Below, piece by piece: positions 1 to 33,000 of a stretch of 64,000 nucleotides of DNA. A program made the position numbers. Source of the DNA: Octopus vulgaris (Eukaryota). Each line of letters opens with the position of its first letter. Positions within the stretch are counted from its first letter, which is position 1. The stretch lies in the NCBI GenBank assembly GCA_951406725.2, contig OX597843.1:18476001-18540000 (forward strand), given 5' to 3'.

Positions 1-3000
1 TTCTCCTTTTTCTTTTTCTTCTTCTTCTTCTTCTTCTTCTTCTTCTTCTTCTTCTTCTTCTCCTCCTCCTCCTCCTTCAACTTCTTCTTCTTCTTCTTCT
101 TCTTCTTCTTCTTCTTCTTCTTCTTCTTCTTCTTCTTCTTCTTCAAGGTGGTGTACTGGCAGAATTGTTAGCACGCTGGGCGAAATACTACGCGGTATTT
201 CACCCATCCCGACGTTCTGAGTTCAAACTCCGCCAAGGCGGCTTTGCCTTTCGCCCTTCCTGGGTCAATGAAATATGTACCAGCTGAACACTTGGGTTGT
301 TGTAATCGACACATTCCCTCTACCCAAATGGTTGCCGTTGTGGAAAAATTTGAAACAGTTATCATATATATTTGCAAATAGTTTGTATATCAATATTTAT
401 TGTATTTCGTGTCTATTATAGATCTATTCATGTAAATAATATTCCGCATATAGAAAAAGGGATATTCCAAGATCTTCCGAGTTTAAAGGAATTGTAAGTC
501 AATTTACTTTTCTTAATACAACTTTATGAAAATAATATTGCTATAAATTCAATGTCATTTCGTTTCTGTTTCATGCCCTATTCTTTGGACTTTTACTCGT
601 TTTTTGTCCATATATTTGAGTAATATTGTTTTGATTGTGTATGAGGTAAAGTACAACTGGGATTTTACATGTTTGCATCAAAGCATATTAATAGAAATGT
701 TGTATATATATGTTAATATGTATAAATATGTATATATGTATATATATATATATATATATATATATATATATATATATATATATATATATATACATATACA
801 TACATATATATATATATATATATATATATTTATACATATACATACATATATATATATATATATATATATATATAAAACTGAGAATGTGTGTCTGTCTGTG
901 TCTGTCTGTGTGTTTCCCTAAAACTTGAGAACTACGCAACCAATTTCATTCAAATTTTACTCATGCCTTACTTAGGGTCCATGTAGTTTCGTGGGCAAAA
1001 AATGTTCAACTACTTGCCTAGAGCGAGCCCATAGCAATACCATATCTTCTCCACTATTTCAGTATTACGTGTTAAAAGTGAAACAAAAACATTTCTCTAT
1101 TTTATGTCAGATGCTTTCACTTTAACAATAAAAATAATAATAATTGAATTATATGTAGTAAGTAATAATTAAAATCAAACTAAAGTATAATATAATCGTA
1201 ACATAACAAAAGTTAAAATAGCAATTGGTATAAAATTGCATCAATGACTTGAACTTGAAAAAGTGGTTTCACATGAATGGGAATAAATTAAAAATAAAAT
1301 AAGCGTGCAGAAATGGAATAGTCCAGATGGATAATAATTAAATTAAAGAAAAGGCTATTGTCTATAAAGCATACAATGTAGAGAAAACAGAAGATTTGAA
1401 CACATGGAGGAAAGCACGATCGAAAAGTGTCTTGGTGCGACTATGAAAGATATCTAACCAGATGCAGTAATTTCGCCATAAATAAAAGCAACGTTCGAGT
1501 CAACAGAGCATGTAAGGGAGTACTCGACTCGAACTTGCAAAGTGGAAATGTTTTTTTACCCTTATATCTGGGACGTAGGACGTCCCGGATAAAAATTTTA
1601 AATGCCCCCATCAGCTGTAGAGGTAGGCTGGATTGTAGCCACACTTCTATACAAGAGGAAGGACAAAATACAATTGATCGAAATTGCAAGAGACGGGCTT
1701 ACAATTCCAGTTTGTTATATATTTTGTGCATTGTTATCACTAGCGATATCAAGATATGACTTTGTATTTTGTATTTTATGTGTAGATGTATATATATATA
1801 TATATATATATATAGATGTACATGTGATATGTACACATATATATACAGATATATACATGCACTAGCACTATGACCCGGCAACGACCGGTCATAATGCTAG
1901 TATATATATGTATATATATATATATATATATATATATATATATATATATATATATATATATATATATATTATAAAATATAATAAATATCAAGAAATCAAT
2001 ATCAGAAAATTCTTCAGAAAGATATATACGTGTGTAAAATAATTCGGTTTCTTATTAATCTTTTCCTTCATCTCAATTTTACTCTTCTTTTCATCTTCCC
2101 CTTTTTCTTGATTCGTCCTCTTCGTCCGCTTCTTCCTTTGCTTGGTATTCTTTGTGCCATTCTCCTTCGTCCTTTTCTTCACTTCTTTTACTTGGTCGTC
2201 TTTTTCTTCTTCATCTTCTTCGTGTTGTTCTTGTAGTTCTTTTTCTTCTATATCTTTTCTTTAATCCACTTTCCATTGTTTTTCTACTTCTTGTTCTTTT
2301 TCATCTACTTCTCTCGTTTTTCTTCTTTTAGATCATCCTTTTCTTTTTATTTTAGTTTTTCTTCATTTTCTTGACTTTCTTGTTGTGTCCCTCAATCTGC
2401 TTTTCGTTCTTGACTTTCATCACTTTCTTCTTTTCCTTCTTTTCTTGTTCCCTTTTTGCCTGCTTCATCATCGTCATGATTATCATTATCTTATTATTCT
2501 ACATCTTTTTCCTCTACCTCCGTCTTCATCTTCCACGTCTTCTTTTTTTTCTCCTTTTCGCTTTCTTTCCCTTCCATTTGGTTTTCTCCTGATTTTCCTT
2601 CGTTTTTTAAACATATTTTACTGCTTCTTTTTCTGGTTCTTTTCTCCTTCATATTCTTTCATCTACATTGTCTTTTCTTTTGTATTCTTGTTTATTTCGA
2701 CTTGTTAGACATTTCCTTCTTTTTTGTCTTCTTCTTCTTCTTCTCAATCTACATTTACTTTTTCTTTATTTGTTTCCTTCTATTTCTTCATCTTCTTCTT
2801 TACTTCCTCCTTGTTTTCTTCACCGACTCCTTTTCTCTTGTTCTTGTTATTGTTCTTCTTTCTCTCCTCCCTTTACTTCATGTTCTTATCTTCCTTCCTT
2901 TCCTACTTGTTTATCACAAACTATGCTGTCATCCTTTCCTATATTTCCATTCTTCATTGTTATCTCAAATATTTTCTATAATTTCTATCGTTGTTCTTTA

Positions 3001-30000: not shown

Positions 30001-33000
30001 AATAAGTGTTTTGTAAGCATCAGCATTTATTCTGTCAGCGTTCGAATAAAGAACAATTTAAAGAGGATTGAACAGTAGAAAACTGATTGATTGAAGATTT
30101 TACTTATTATAACTTATGTAATATTTGTCTCTTTTTCAGATATTTGCAAAACAACTCAATACAAAAATATGAAGATGGCGCTTTCTTTTTCCTCCCCAGC
30201 ATAGCTGGCATGTAAGCATAACAAGTTCTTTTTGTTTATAGGAAAATGAAAATAATAAAATGAGGTCATCAAATTCTCAATTCCTCGTTAAATGTTGTTG
30301 GTAATAAACAACAATGAGTTGATTTAAATTTCAGTGCATCAACATGATTTCCGAGCATTGTGTTTTACTATCGTAAATTTTATGTCCAAATATCAAGGGT
30401 TGGTTTGATCTAGTTTACCCCATGTTTATAAATACACATAATAAACTGGAGTTGAGAAAGTGGCCTATATACCAACCTACACACATATATGTACACTTGA
30501 GTGTGCATGTGTATGTATATACATGCTTAAACAAGCACACACTTATATACTACTGTTACTTATATATTATAGCCTTATGACACCAAAGTTATCAAAAGGA
30601 ATAATATTCACAATTCCATTCAGATATTTCTGATGACTGCTGCGATTACCTCTCTCTTTCTGCCGTGGAGCCATTTAGTAATTCAGTTATTTCGGGACTA
30701 TAGCATTTTTTCTACTATGAGCACAAGGCCTGCAAATTTTTTGCTAGGCGTTTGTCGATTACATCATCCCTAGTGTTCGACTGATACTTAATTTATCGAA
30801 CCTAAAATTATGAAAAGCAAAGCCAACCACGGAATTTGAACTCAGTACGTGAAATAGAAAGAAATGCCGCCAGACGTTTTCCTAGCATACTAACGGTTCT
30901 GCACGTTCGTCACATTTACGTATCTATAATATAATACTGATTTCAAATTTTGGCACAAGACCAGACATTTCCGGGTTGGGATAAGTCGATTACATCGACC
31001 CCATTGTTCATCTGGTACTTATTCTATTGACCTCGAATGAATGAAAGGCAATGTCGACCCCAATAGAATTTGAACCCTTTCCTCCGTTCGCAAAAATACT
31101 GTATATATTGACATAATGCTAACATTCGCCGAAACCCATTGTAGTAGTTAGATATCAACATACATTTTAGCATGATATAACAATATGCAAACATATCTAA
31201 GCAACGGACTTTCGTTGAACTTCCGTTTACTAGGTTCACTGAAAAAGGTGTTCGTTGCCTGGCAAGCTGGCTAGTTGGACATCTGGACATCTGGACATCT
31301 GGACGTTTAACTGGTTGGTAACTACAGTTTCTCAACAGTACGCGCATTGGGAACAAAATAAAAATATATTTCTTACTCAGTCAGCTTTACTCGTGCCGAT
31401 ACACACAAAAACACATACACACTCACACAAACATACATATTTACAGGGTAGGGCAAAAGTCACCCGACAGTAATTCGAAATTCCATAAATACTATCTATA
31501 ATTCTGTATTGACTCAAATGGAAAAAATGTGTCACTCAAGAAGGACTTCAGTTTGAACAATTTCCATGTTTCATATTTATATGCTTGTATTTAAATTCAT
31601 TCAGTTGTTAACCATAAATAAATCTTGGAATTAAATAGTTTTGATTTACTGTTAGGTGACTTTTGACCAACCTTGAATATATATATATATATATATATAT
31701 ATATATATATGTATATATATATACTAGCAGCTAAGCCCGGTTTCACCCGGTCTGTTTGGATGGCGTGGCTGTGATCGTTTTCGGTTAGACATAATCTATA
31801 TAACAGCGTTTCTCAACCTTATTATTTCGGGTCCCCTGTTTCGATTGGAGCCTCCAGCTGTATGAAAATTTTCTGACCCCACCCCGTCAGAAAACAACTG
31901 GTTGTTTTAATGGCGGAAGAAAGTGGGGAATTCCATTAGAAACGTTTTAATCAATTTTCTCGGTAAGTATGGGGGTTAGGAAAAAAATACAAACTGCATT
32001 CCAATCTATGTACCCGTCTCCATATATGTACCATTTTCCACGCGAATCCTACCAGCCGTTTGGCTGTGAACCTCAAGACAAAAAAGAATACAACGATCGC
32101 CCATGTCCACTTTATGTGATAGATTACATTTATGTGTATTTGTGTAGAGATAAGATTGCATATACGATTATTATTCGTATTCGTAGTGATTTTCTGTAGC
32201 AACATGGCATTCGTGCGTGTTACTTCAAGTCATGTATAGGCAAGTCGCATCACTGCGAGTTGTTCATATTATCACACCCCAGTTTTTCTACGACAACGTG
32301 CCTGACAGCAACTATATTTCATATATGAGAAAAATATTTCAGTAACTTGATCTGATTTACAGTAAGGACCAATTTTCTTTCATATCTTTGCTGCTTCTTA
32401 AATTCCCTTTGCCGATGATCACAGATTTAATCCTTCTGCGCAAGGAGCTAGCTCGTACACGTCCGCCATGTTTGTTATTCGCCTATTATTATTATTATTA
32501 TTATTATTATTATTATTATTATTATTATTATTATTATTATTATTATTATCATTATTATTATTATTATTATTCTATATTTGACATTTGCTTTATGTCTGTA
32601 CAAGTTGGCTCCAAGTCTCACCCAGAGACCTCAAGAGACAACAGGTTGGAAGTTCACGTTGTTGTTGTGCCTAGTGTGTCATATATTTGGGAGAGAGTTT
32701 TTGGTGTTGTACTAGTGAATGTCTAATAGATTAAAAAAAAGTTTGTTTTAAACCTTGGGATTACATAGAGAGTATTTTGCGTAGGATATGAGCAGTTCCC
32801 ACGAGCACTATCTTTTGAATTTCTGCCATTTTGGGGTTTCCTGGTATCTGAGTTAGGTAGCAATCAGTCCCTTTCGCTATCTTTCCCATAATTATTATTA
32901 CTATTATTTATTATTATTATTATTATTATTATTATTATCATTATTATTATTATTATTATTATTATTATTATTATTATTATTATTATTATTATTATTATTA

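What the first reader, a model, noticed from the sequence alone, without database searches (positions are those of the whole stretch)
422..30211. Fifteen interchangeable 72-nt LRR cassettes: candidate combinatorial receptor-diversification system
Seen: every LRR exon is exactly 72 nt and phase 2-2. Exons 1-14 end in TT or CT and all start with A or G, so any donor-acceptor pairing rebuilds a Leu codon and keeps frame. The intron interrupts LxxL|xLxxN, so each concave beta-strand takes residues from two exons (for example KEL|YLYR, QKL|YLNG). Established: that strand forms the ligand-binding face of LRR solenoids, and one-LRR-per-72-nt-exon structure is common. Inference: exon skipping or unequal crossover would change solenoid length and also create new binding strands, conceptually like VLR or Dscam diversification but on a GPCR. 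The sequence shows capacity only, not use.
Basis: partly seen in the sequence, partly recalled or inferred. Interest (0 to 1): 0.8.

Follow-up and report, generated by a model that had tools for sequence, protein, structure and literature searches.

The report
Octopus adhesion-GPCR leucine-rich-repeat exon array
This is the ligand-binding part of an octopus-specific adhesion receptor gene, built by repeatedly duplicating a five-exon block of one-repeat exons; the design lets exons be skipped in frame, but that is a common property of such genes and nothing here shows a dedicated diversity-generating system.

Summary
Fifteen + strand exons (422-30211) are each 72 nt and phase 2-2, with one LRR per exon. 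All 119 forward donor-acceptor pairings rebuild Leu.

The gene is an adhesion GPCR, not an LGR. It belongs to an Octopus-lineage family that NCBI names 'ADGRG6-like'. Downstream exons run to the GPS motif at 61.8 kb, and the 7TM lies beyond the window.

The 15 exons are not equivalent cassettes. They form a five-type super-repeat, ABCDE-ABCDE-AB.DE plus a unique last LRR, made by old tandem duplication of ~10-kb blocks whose introns are also homologous. One copy has decayed.

Copies are under purifying selection (pooled dN/dS 0.23). Concave-face residues are type-specific and conserved. Splice sites are strong, and no docking/selector-like elements were found.

Public gene models of two paralogues differ by whole 24-residue LRR units, so in-frame skipping probably occurs in the family.

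The same design, and the same diversification idea, are already published for brown-algal ROCO genes. Related facts are in print for the gonadotropin receptors (all LRR introns phase 2) and LGR5 (variants lacking one exon).

The parts
422..493 (+). LRR exon 1, type A (SIHVNN...), 72 nt, phase 2-2
   Evidence: Pfam LRR_8 E=0.0094
3010..3081 (+). LRR exon 2, type B (YLYRNN...)
   Evidence: LRR_8 E=8.6e-5
4793..4864 (+). LRR exon 3, type C (YLKNNT...)
8852..8923 (+). LRR exon 4, type D (TLEYNK...)
10603..10674 (+). LRR exon 5, type E (YLNGNN...)
11492..11563 (+). LRR exon 6, type A
13064..13135 (+). LRR exon 7, type B
13723..13794 (+). LRR exon 8, type C
15876..15948 (+). Decayed B/E-type LRR pseudo-exon in intron 8 (approximate bounds): acceptor CAG changed to CAC, donor GTAAGT changed to GCATGT, 1-nt insertion, Asn codon changed to TAT
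   Evidence: nhmmer E=5e-4; alignment; long branch inside the B/E clade
18401..18472 (+). LRR exon 9, type D
19393..19464 (+). LRR exon 10, type E
20802..20873 (+). LRR exon 11, type A (ends CT; donor GTGAGT)
23631..23702 (+). LRR exon 12, type B. Its last full codon is the ATG that the NCBI O. sinensis models use as their start
26700..26771 (+). LRR exon 13, type D. No type-C exon precedes it in this third block
27742..27813 (+). LRR exon 14, type E (ends CT)
30140..30211 (+). LRR exon 15, the unique last LRR (..IQKYEDGAFFFLPS..). This type is conserved as the last LRR in paralogues. It ends in AT
37262..37419 (+). Exon 16, an LRR C-terminal cap-like Cys-containing segment (NLENNDRMVCGCHLPAF...). 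It is entered in phase 2 and left in phase 1, which ends the symmetric series
   Evidence: no Pfam hit
39512..41391 (+). Exons 17 (39512-39603) and 18 (41208-41391): a Cys-rich segment with a weak Ly6/uPAR-like signal
   Evidence: UPAR_LY6_2 E=0.029, below the cut-off; pLDDT below 50 in the model
43177..49496 (+). Exons 19 (43177-43259), 20 (46807-46859) and 21 (49339-49496): a linker domain of unknown family
52239..53912 (+). Exons 22 (52239-52353) and 23 (53743-53912): hormone-receptor (HRM) domain
   Evidence: HRM E=0.0011, below the cut-off; HormR-GAIN structures matched
55252..61441 (+). Exons 24-27 (55252-55483, 55780-55951, 57975-58133, 61313-61441): GAIN domain
   Evidence: GAIN E=0.045 on one exon and E=3.6e-4 on P0001; fold matches
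61839..61991 (+). Exon 28 (3' end approximate): GPS motif ...CSCDYLTSFALL, with Tyr where the family has His
   Evidence: GPS E=9.5e-14
33383..35540 (-). LINE-like reverse-transcriptase ORFs inside intron 15. Not part of the gene; listed as context
   Evidence: RVT_1 E=4.2e-26 and zf-RVT E=3.9e-6

Best explanation
Region 422-30211 encodes the middle and C-terminal part of the LRR ectodomain of one adhesion GPCR gene. The gene belongs to an Octopus-lineage expanded family whose 7TM is ADGRG-like, and the window is most likely from Octopus vulgaris or a very close relative. The gene continues through a cap-like exon, a Cys-rich segment, HRM, GAIN and GPS exons up to 61.99 kb. Its 5' end and its 7TM lie outside the window.

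The array arose by tandem duplication of a genomic block of about 9-11 kb carrying five single-LRR exons (types A to E), giving ABCDE-ABCDE-AB.DE plus a unique last LRR. One type-C exon was later lost, and one extra B/E-type copy decayed.

The uniform 72-nt, phase 2-2 form is inherited from duplicating one prototype exon. It is the reason such duplications stay in frame; it is not an adaptation for shuffling. The exons are most likely spliced constitutively into a solenoid of at least 15 LRRs with a five-repeat periodicity on its binding face (inferred).

Occasional in-frame skipping of LRR exons probably happens, as gene models of paralogues suggest. The diversity that is actually documented is germline diversity: many paralogues, each with its own independently expanded LRR array.
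For: Identity of the gene. The reading frame through exon 15 hits XP_036370807.1, 'adhesion GPCR G6-like' of O. sinensis. That model maps to the window from exon 13 through the GPS exon, and an O. vulgaris model matches three exons at 100%. Pfam on the model finds LRR_8, GPS and 7tm_2 above their cut-offs, and HRM and GAIN below them. The window's own GPS exon scores E=9.5e-14. The fold search hits CD97, the Gpr126/ADGRG6 extracellular region, and BAI3 and latrophilin HormR-GAIN structures; the 7TM is 35-38% identical to ADGRG2/G4/G6.

One gene. All 15 exons share strand and phase. No family-type signal-peptide/LRRNT exon lies in the window. The NCBI model's start 'ML' is the ATG that ends exon 12 plus the split Leu.

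Block duplication. Exon identities are 72-92% within types and 39-69% between most types; the related pairs B/E (74-81%) and C/D (64-74%) are higher. Introns are homologous between blocks, for example 17069-18730 against 25407-27030 at 83% over 1700 nt. The tree groups type A (95/94), D (88/88) and E (85/89). The profile search finds exactly 15 copies plus one decayed copy.

Selection. Pooled within-type dN/dS is 0.23 with dS 0.61. Scaffold residues L1, N9, I11, F19 and L22 are invariant in exons 1-14. Within-type difference at concave positions 5, 7 and 8 is 0.00, 0.15 and 0.38, against 0.73-1.00 between types. Exon identity exceeds both 200-nt flanks in 13 of 13 pairs.

Splicing signals. Donors are GTAAGT in 13 of 15 exons, and polypyrimidine content is 0.65-0.76, no weaker than in 10 downstream exons.

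Family context. In one search the 42 best rows are 40 named Octopus proteins plus 2 unnamed ones; the next hit has E=1e-60. Paralogues have their own super-repeats, of period 4 (P0007, 20 LRRs; also P0028 and P0010) or period 3 (P0012), and a conserved last LRR. Ritschard et al. 2019 (PMC6408891, passages) describe an octopus-specific adhesion-GPCR expansion with LRRs in 5 of 22 sequences.
Against: No transcript or protein model that I could retrieve contains exons 1-12. The search with exon 3 found nothing (which the tool itself calls weak evidence), and none of 44 Octopus models maps to those exons at 93% identity or more. Constitutive inclusion is therefore inferred from sequence alone.

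Gene models of two paralogues differ by whole LRR units, so skipping may be more than noise.

The youngest pair, exons 9 and 13, has dN/dS 1.23, though this rests on 1 synonymous and 5 non-synonymous changes. The most variable within-type position is 3 (0.77), which is on the concave face next to the junction.

The dN/dS estimate pools 13 non-independent pairs of 23 codons each.
Confidence: 0.7

Rival explanations
1. The symmetric LRR exons are used as cassettes: regulated or stochastic skipping generates many ectodomain isoforms with different lengths and new hybrid binding strands, giving an LRR-based receptor-diversity system on an adhesion GPCR.
For: All 119 of 119 forward pairings stay in frame and rebuild Leu, and the strands straddle the junctions. 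An O. sinensis paralogue has isoform X1 (1208 aa) and five distinct models X2-X6 (1184 aa each), each lacking one 24-residue LRR at a different place. The neighbouring O. vulgaris paralogue has models that differ by 72 aa, which is three LRRs. [quoted passage not shown] An inverted 408-nt repeat pair in introns 8 and 12 could loop out exons 9-12 (speculative).
Against: Only 2 of 12 groups of near-identical models differ by LRR units. These are computed gene models, and three of the five single-LRR deletions fall in near-identical repeats where spliced reads can be mis-assigned. For this gene, the two isoform models differ by one Ala after the GPS motif. Splice sites are strong. Selection is purifying and concave residues are type-conserved. 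No element complementary to a common site recurs in the introns. The same capacity exists in the gonadotropin-receptor genes (PMC11378527 passage) and LGR5 (PMC10470845 passage) without any such system.
Confidence: 0.15
2. Ongoing germline unequal crossover between the three blocks makes LRR exon number polymorphic between haplotypes and between species.
For: The array was built by block duplication, lost a type-C exon and holds a decayed copy. The third block resembles block 1 in its A exon (81% against 76%) and block 2 in its D and E exons (92% and 90%), as a recombinant would. Paralogues expanded independently with periods of 3, 4 and 5 LRRs.
Against: The blocks are old and diverged: dS is 0.61 and intron identity is 67-84%. 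The longest uninterrupted non-simple identity is 26-27 nt for block 1 against blocks 2 and 3, and 104 nt for block 2 against block 3. That such short tracts make homologous unequal exchange rare is an inference from other organisms. No second haplotype or orthologous locus could be examined.
Confidence: 0.15
3. Exons 1-12 are not part of the functional mRNA. They would be relics, or part of a separate LRR-only gene, and the receptor would carry only about 3 LRRs as in the public models.
For: The public O. sinensis models begin at the end of exon 12, and the O. vulgaris model begins at exon 21. No retrieved model holds exons 1-12. LRR-only models exist in the family.
Against: All 12 exons keep an open frame, AG/GT sites, strong donors and invariant scaffold residues, whereas the one true relic has lost all of these. 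dN/dS is 0.23. No terminal exon or new first exon (signal peptide/LRRNT) lies between them and exon 13. The NCBI start codon sits inside exon 12, which implies that the transcript reaches at least that exon.
Confidence: 0.08

Closest known systems
Octopus-specific adhesion-GPCR expansion ('group 3' of Ritschard et al. 2019, PMC6408891; passages read)
   Same: GPS plus adhesion 7TM, LRRs in some members, co-localised genes, octopus-restricted. P0010 (O. bimaculoides 'GPR126-like', with LRR and Death Pfam domains) fits the paper's description and is 49% identical to the orthologue of this gene.
   Different: In the passages I read, the paper does not describe exon structure, LRR super-repeats or splicing ('splic' occurs 0 times).
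Vertebrate ADGRG6/GPR126, ADGRG2 and ADGRG4
   Same: The closest solved 7TM domains (35-38% identity) and a HormR-GAIN extracellular region. NCBI names the family 'G6-like'.
   Different: From recall, ADGRG6 carries CUB, pentraxin and SEA domains rather than LRRs. Here the N-terminus is a long LRR solenoid, and the GPS motif has Tyr in place of His.
Vertebrate ADGRA2/ADGRA3 (GPR124/GPR125), the LRR-bearing adhesion GPCRs (recalled; PMC6408891 only states that human adhesion GPCRs can carry LRRs)
   Same: LRR and cap, HRM, GAIN and 7tm_2 in one receptor.
   Different: From recall, only about 4 LRRs plus an Ig domain. The 7TM here is nearer to the ADGRG subfamily.
LGR-type GPCRs: glycoprotein-hormone receptors and LGR4-6
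   Same: One LRR per exon of similar size, with all introns in phase 2 (PMC11378527 passage citing Koo 1991 and Kobe & Deisenhofer 1994). Single-exon deletion variants LGR5-delta5 and LGR5-delta8 (PMC10470845 passage).
   Different: LGRs have a rhodopsin-type 7TM. This gene has GAIN/GPS and a 7tm_2 domain.
Brown-algal LRR-ROCO genes (Zambounis 2012, PMC3341825, abstract read; PMC11378527, passages read)
   Same: 72-bp, phase-2, one-LRR exons. Splice variants. An explicit proposal that exon shuffling plus alternative splicing diversifies a receptor repertoire, with comparison to Dscam.
   Different: Cytosolic ROC-COR GTPases. Shuffling there obscures paralogy and the concave sites are under positive selection. 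Here the block order is preserved and selection is purifying.
Lamprey VLR assembly and insect Dscam1 mutually exclusive splicing (features recalled)
   Same: Only the general idea: repeated cassettes that could vary a binding surface.
   Different: The cassettes here are collinear exons with splice sites, not flanking donor cassettes. They are serial, not alternative for a single slot. No docking/selector complementarity was found.

Membership tests
Adhesion GPCR (class B2) | GPS motif within a GAIN domain, directly before the 7TM | tested here: met
   Window exon 61836-61991 hits GPS at E=9.5e-14, above the cut-off. GAIN is below the cut-off by sequence, but HormR-GAIN structures are matched.
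Adhesion GPCR (class B2) | Secretin-type 7TM (Pfam 7tm_2) | tested here: inconclusive
   The 7TM lies beyond the end of the window. The orthologous O. sinensis model has 7tm_2 at E=2.9e-37, and solved adhesion-GPCR 7TMs are matched.
Adhesion GPCR (class B2) | Autoproteolysis consensus His-Leu|Thr/Ser at the GPS (consensus recalled) | tested here: not met
   The window and both Octopus models read Y-L-T. The family alignment has a nearly invariant His in that column. Cleavage itself cannot be tested here.
LGR (LRR-containing rhodopsin-type GPCR) | Rhodopsin-type 7TM (7tm_1) after the LRR and hinge | tested here: not met
   The orthologue has 7tm_2, GPS and HRM and no 7tm_1.
Octopus-specific adhesion-GPCR expansion, group 3 (PMC6408891) | Falls in the octopus-only clade of GPS/adhesion-7TM genes, some of them with LRRs | tested here: inconclusive
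   The 42 best homologues are 40 named Octopus proteins plus 2 unnamed ones, and the next hit has E=1e-60. No tree with the paper's sequences was built, and its member tables are in closed supplements.
VLR-type somatic LRR assembly | An incomplete germline gene flanked by donor LRR cassettes that lack splice sites | tested here: not met
   All 15 units are collinear exons with AG/GT sites and strong donors.
VLR-type somatic LRR assembly | Hypervariable concave-face residues among cassettes | tested here: not met
   Within types, concave positions differ no more (0.32) than other variable positions (0.36). Positions 5, 7 and 8 are conserved. Pooled dN/dS is 0.23. The sample is small.
VLR-type somatic LRR assembly | AID/APOBEC-like deaminase-driven copy choice | not testable with these tools
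   No octopus genome or somatic DNA was available.
Dscam1-type mutually exclusive splicing | A docking site complementary to selector sequences before each alternative exon | tested here: not met
   The 16 inverted matches within 1-37300 all involve dispersed repeat copies in introns 0, 1, 3, 4, 8, 12, 14 and 15. None recurs in every intron. BLAST would miss short elements.
Dscam1-type mutually exclusive splicing | Alternative exons compete for one structural slot | tested here: not met
   The exons are serial repeats of five ordered types. Paralogue isoforms delete units rather than swap them.
Brown-algal ROCO-type LRR exon shuffling | 72-bp, phase-2, one-LRR exons | tested here: met
   compared with PMC11378527.
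Brown-algal ROCO-type LRR exon shuffling | Positive selection on concave sites and shuffling that erases paralogy | tested here: not met
   Selection is purifying and the ABCDE order is preserved.
Brown-algal ROCO-type LRR exon shuffling | ROC-COR GTPase domains | tested here: not met
   No such domains in the orthologue.

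The most novel reading that the evidence does not exclude
The octopus LRR adhesion-GPCR cluster would use stochastic or regulated skipping of its symmetric single-LRR exons. Individual neurons or sucker cells would then display different-length ectodomains with hybrid binding strands. This would be an LRR-based counterpart of Dscam or clustered-protocadherin diversity in the octopus peripheral nervous system, layered on top of rapid germline expansion of the arrays.
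Probability: 0.12. Interest if true: 0.8.

Novelty: new member of a known kind. Interest (0 to 1): 0.35.

Why it matters
The gene family is one of the few octopus-specific receptor expansions, and it is reported to be expressed in the arm nerve cord, suckers and skin. This window shows that one member carries at least 15 LRRs, of which public models include only three, so family-wide domain counts are probably underestimates. It also shows how the arrays grow: by duplicating multi-exon blocks. And it turns the diversification idea into a concrete, cheap test, namely long-read cDNA across the array. The exon design alone should not be read as evidence for a diversity-generating mechanism.

Tried and rejected
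LGR identity: rejected, because GPS and 7tm_2 are present and 7tm_1 is not.

A 7TM ORF inside the window: none found. The gene runs off the 3' end of the window after the GPS exon.

LRRCT/LRRNT regular expressions: no hit. The cap-like exon 16 was found only through the orthologue, and it has no Pfam match.

I redid it with the contiguous open frame through the exon.

Search for models that contain a type-C exon: nothing found.

Mapping 44 Octopus models to the window: only the orthologue's models fit, and none holds exons 1-12.

First inverted-repeat script: it returned nothing because of my own BLAST call. Repeated correctly.

First scaffold-pattern count: the pattern contained an error. Corrected.

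tRNA scan, to explain the 184-nt tandem repeat: 0 genes.

Literature. A search for adhesion GPCR + alternative splicing + LRR + exon skipping found 0 papers. A broader search on LRR exon skipping gave nothing relevant in its listing. A cephalopod-specific search returned only PMC6408891.

Left out. The full-length window-encoded protein was therefore never searched or modelled. The structural check used the public O. sinensis model, which holds only exons 13-15.

Not available or not used. No eukaryotic genome or RNA-seq collection was available.

Full report
OBSERVATION

The window has no N. One search lists every AG-[72 nt]-GT/GC segment that is open in the frame in which one base completes a split codon. 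There are 94 such segments on the + strand and 93 on the - strand. Fifteen of the + strand ones are leucine-rich repeats, and none of the - strand ones is.

Their coordinates are 422-493, 3010-3081, 4793-4864, 8852-8923, 10603-10674, 11492-11563, 13064-13135, 13723-13794, 18401-18472, 19393-19464, 20802-20873, 23631-23702, 26700-26771, 27742-27813 and 30140-30211.

Exons 1-14 end in TT (12) or CT (2), and exon 15 ends in AT. All 15 begin with A (12) or G (3). Exon 16 (37262-37419) also begins with A. As a result, 119 of 119 forward pairings of a donor from exons 1-14 with any later acceptor up to exon 16 give Leu.

A scaffold pattern matches the 15 exons, 0 of the other 172 candidate segments, and 0 sites in 20 shuffled windows. 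The pattern was derived from these exons, so only its absence elsewhere is informative. A DNA profile built from the 15 recovers them by construction, and beyond them it finds only one further significant hit in the whole window. Three of three single exons tested match Pfam LRR_8.

The AlphaFold model of the public orthologue has pLDDT blocks of 71-91 over the LRRs. It places the concave strands at residues 25-27, 49-51 and 73-75. Each of these is the last residue of one exon, the split-codon residue and the first residue of the next exon.

WHAT THE GENE IS

No long 7TM reading frame lies downstream in the window. A 23-residue exon was too short for the homology tool, so I sent the contiguous open frame that runs through exon 15. 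It hit XP_036370807.1, 'adhesion G-protein coupled receptor G6-like isoform X2' of Octopus sinensis.

That model maps onto the window from exon 13 onward. It covers exon 16 (37262-37419, a cap-like segment with ..CGCHLPAF..) and then exons 17-28, ending at the GPS motif at 61839-61991. An O. vulgaris model (CAI9744521.1) matches three of these exons at 100%, so the window is most likely O. vulgaris or a very close relative.

Pfam on the model gives LRR_8, GPS and 7tm_2 above their cut-offs, and HRM and GAIN below them. The window's own GPS exon scores E=9.5e-14. The fold search returns adhesion GPCRs only at the top: CD97, the zebrafish Gpr126/Adgrg6 extracellular region, and BAI3 and latrophilin HormR-GAIN structures. 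The 7TM is closest to ADGRG2/G4/G6, at 35-38% identity.

So the 'GPCR' is an adhesion GPCR, not an LGR, and its 7TM lies beyond the end of the window. The downstream exons have mixed sizes (53-232 nt) and mixed phases. The 72-nt 2-2 design is confined to the LRR array.

Every search was made exon by exon or with public proteins, so the full-length protein encoded by this window was never searched or modelled.

ARE ALL 15 EXONS ONE GENE?

The public models are truncated at the 5' end. The O. sinensis models start 'ML', which is the ATG that ends exon 12 plus the split Leu codon. The O. vulgaris model starts at exon 21.

No retrieved protein contains exons 1-12. The search with exon 3 found nothing, which the tool itself calls weak evidence. 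None of 44 Octopus models maps to those exons at 93% identity or more, and the best matches are 13-19 of 23 residues, to paralogous LRRs.

Against a separate gene or relics, all 15 exons keep open frames, AG/GT sites, strong donors and invariant scaffold residues. No family-type signal-peptide/LRRNT exon occurs anywhere in the window. Exon 1 has an acceptor site, so the array continues upstream and fifteen is a lower bound.

ANATOMY OF THE ARRAY

The exons are not interchangeable equals. They fall into five types: A (exons 1, 6, 11), B (2, 7, 12), C (3, 8), D (4, 9, 13) and E (5, 10, 14). Exon 15 is unique. The order is ABCDE-ABCDE-AB.DE-Z.

Nucleotide identity is 72-92% within types. Between types it is 39-69%, except for the related pairs B/E (74-81%) and C/D (64-74%). 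A tree of the exons with 40-nt flanks supports types A (95/94), D (88/88), E (85/89) and B2+B7 (82/92).

The introns are homologous between blocks as well. Examples are 17069-18730 against 25407-27030 (83% over 1700 nt), 10200-10891 against 18982-19682 (71%) and 359-758 against 20739-21135 (74%). So whole genomic blocks of about 9-11 kb were duplicated in tandem.

The third block lacks a type-C exon. Intron 8 holds a decayed B/E-type copy at about 15876-15948. Its acceptor CAG has become CAC, its donor GTAAGT has become GCATGT, it carries a 1-nt insertion, and the invariant Asn codon has become TAT. This relic shows what an unselected copy looks like, and it contrasts with the 15 intact exons.

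SELECTION AND SPLICING SIGNALS

Pooled over the 13 within-type pairs, dS is 0.61, dN is 0.14 and dN/dS is 0.23. The range is 0.06-0.54, except for the youngest pair, exons 9 and 13, at 1.23 from 1 synonymous and 5 non-synonymous changes. The pairs are not independent and each has only 23 codons, so this is a rough estimate.

Exon identity exceeds that of both 200-nt flanks in 13 of 13 pairs.

On the concave face, positions 5, 7 and 8 define the types. They differ between types in 0.73-1.00 of comparisons, but within types in only 0.00, 0.15 and 0.38. Overall, concave positions vary within types (0.32) no more than other non-scaffold positions (0.36). The most variable within-type position is 3 (0.77), the residue just before each junction.

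This pattern fits a maintained binding surface with a five-repeat period. It does not fit cassettes selected for diversity.

Donors are GTAAGT in 13 of 15 exons (the others are GTGAGT and GTAAGC). Polypyrimidine content is 0.65-0.76, no weaker than in the 10 downstream exons scored.

The 16 inverted matches between introns are all copies of dispersed repeats, and none recurs in every intron.

The blocks share only 26-27 nt of uninterrupted non-simple identity (block 1 against blocks 2 and 3) or 104 nt (block 2 against block 3). I infer that homologous unequal exchange would now be rare.

THE FAMILY

A search with the orthologue returned 104 proteins at E<=1e-10. The 42 best are 40 named Octopus proteins (O. 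sinensis, O. vulgaris, O. bimaculoides) plus 2 unnamed ones. Most are called 'adhesion GPCR G6-like'. The next hit, a newt ADGRG4, has E=1e-60.

Members range from 0 to 21 hits to a strict LRR motif. Paralogues have their own super-repeats: period 4 in P0007 (20 LRRs in register; lag-4 identity 0.59 and lag-8 0.65, against 0.44-0.49 at other lags), and also in P0028 and P0010; and period 3 in P0012. They share a conserved last LRR of the exon-15 type. Block duplication of LRR exons is therefore recurrent in the family.

Ritschard et al. 2019 (PMC6408891; passages read) already describe an octopus-specific adhesion-GPCR expansion, 'group 3'. They report LRRs in 5 of 22 sequences and a Death domain in one. 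[quoted passage not shown] The word 'splic' does not occur in that paper. Its member tables are in supplements that I could not open.

IS THE CAPACITY USED?

For this gene, the only isoforms retrieved (X1 and X2) differ by one Ala after the GPS motif.

Among 12 groups of near-identical models (11, plus P0028/P0029), 2 differ by whole LRR units.

- The first is an O. sinensis paralogue. Its X1 has 1208 aa, and its X2-X6 have 1184 aa each. Each of these five lacks exactly 24 residues at a different place.
- The second is an O. vulgaris paralogue on the same contig, whose accession numbers sit close to this gene's. Its two models differ by 72 residues, which is three LRRs.

These are computed gene models. 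Three of the five single-LRR deletions lie in nearly identical repeats, where read assignment is ambiguous. Two of them remove unique LRRs. I read this as showing that in-frame LRR skipping probably occurs in the family. Nothing is shown about its abundance or regulation.

COMPARISON WITH WHAT IS KNOWN

One LRR per 72-bp phase-2 exon is described for brown-algal ROCO genes. The same proposal was made there: exon shuffling and alternative splicing diversify a receptor repertoire, with explicit comparison to Dscam. That paper also notes that all introns of the gonadotropin receptors are phase 2 (PMC11378527, passages; PMC3341825, abstract and outline).

LGR5 has 18 exons, with exons 1-17 forming the LRRs, and has known variants lacking exon 5 or exon 8 (PMC10470845, one passage).

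Features of VLR and Dscam systems are recalled, not tested from papers. The tests made here were for collinear spliced exons, lack of concave hypervariability, and lack of docking/selector elements. All three go against membership.

A search for papers combining adhesion GPCR, alternative splicing, LRR and exon skipping found none. A cephalopod-specific search returned only PMC6408891. Within the searched library, I found no paper describing the exon-level architecture of this octopus family.

VERDICT

The mechanism behind it is ordinary: duplication of one symmetric prototype exon, and later of five-exon blocks, built a long LRR ectodomain in a member of a known octopus-specific adhesion-GPCR family.

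The capacity is real. Evolutionary changes in exon number are real. Skipping appears in gene models of paralogues. As a dedicated system, however, it is not supported. It remains testable with long-read cDNA.

Noticed in passing
window 61839-61991: The GPS motif reads ..CSCDYLTSFALL. The family alignment of 23 sequences has a nearly invariant His where this gene, in both O. sinensis and O. vulgaris models, has Tyr. From recall, that His is needed for GAIN autoproteolysis, so this paralogue may be an uncleaved adhesion GPCR.
   Followed up: partly
window 422-23702, compared with public models XP_036370807.1, XP_029652812.2 and CAI9744521.1: The public models are truncated at the 5' end. The O. 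sinensis coding sequence starts at the ATG that ends exon 12, and the O. vulgaris model starts at exon 21. Twelve intact LRR exons are therefore absent from every protein model I could retrieve.
   Followed up: yes
window 15876-15948: A decayed LRR pseudo-exon lies in intron 8. It has lost both splice sites, is frameshifted, and has lost the invariant Asn.
   Followed up: yes
window 14289-14694 and 24821-25226: A 408-nt repeat is present in opposite orientations in introns 8 and 12, at 91% identity. Pairing of the two copies in the pre-mRNA could loop out exons 9-12, which total 4 x 72 nt and would stay in frame. This is purely speculative.
   Followed up: no
window 23750-24489; related copies at 142-310, 9160-9429 and 30754-30850: A 184-nt unit is repeated four times in tandem in intron 12, at 97% identity. 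It belongs to a dispersed repeat family found in both orientations. No tRNA-like gene was detected.
   Followed up: partly
window 3766-4212, 10063-10444, 20403-20689, 27030-27425 and 29023-29204: Long (TTC)n/(TCT)n tracts of 180-450 nt lie on the coding strand in several introns, some at homologous positions upstream of type-E exons. They account for the strong negative GC and AT skew across 2-30 kb. Whether they affect splicing is unknown.
   Followed up: no
window 33383-35540, - strand: LINE-like reverse-transcriptase ORFs (RVT_1 E=4.2e-26, zf-RVT E=3.9e-6) lie inside the 7-kb intron 15.
   Followed up: partly
window 39512-41391 (exons 17-18): A Cys-rich segment lies between the LRR cap and the HRM domain and ends in ..CC.GNLCNKNDF. 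It has a weak Ly6/uPAR-like Pfam signal (E=0.029, below the cut-off). Parts of it are conserved in the family consensus, but it is modelled with pLDDT below 50. The domain identity is unresolved.
   Followed up: partly
paralogues P0007, P0012, P0028 and P0010 (not in the window): Other family members carry their own LRR super-repeats, of period 4 or 3, and all share a conserved last LRR (..IQ.YEDGAFLFLP..). This suggests that interior LRR blocks expand independently in each gene while the capping end stays fixed.
   Followed up: partly
window 8323-8741: A 138-nt unit is repeated three times in tandem, at 95% identity, in intron 3 just upstream of exon 4.
   Followed up: no
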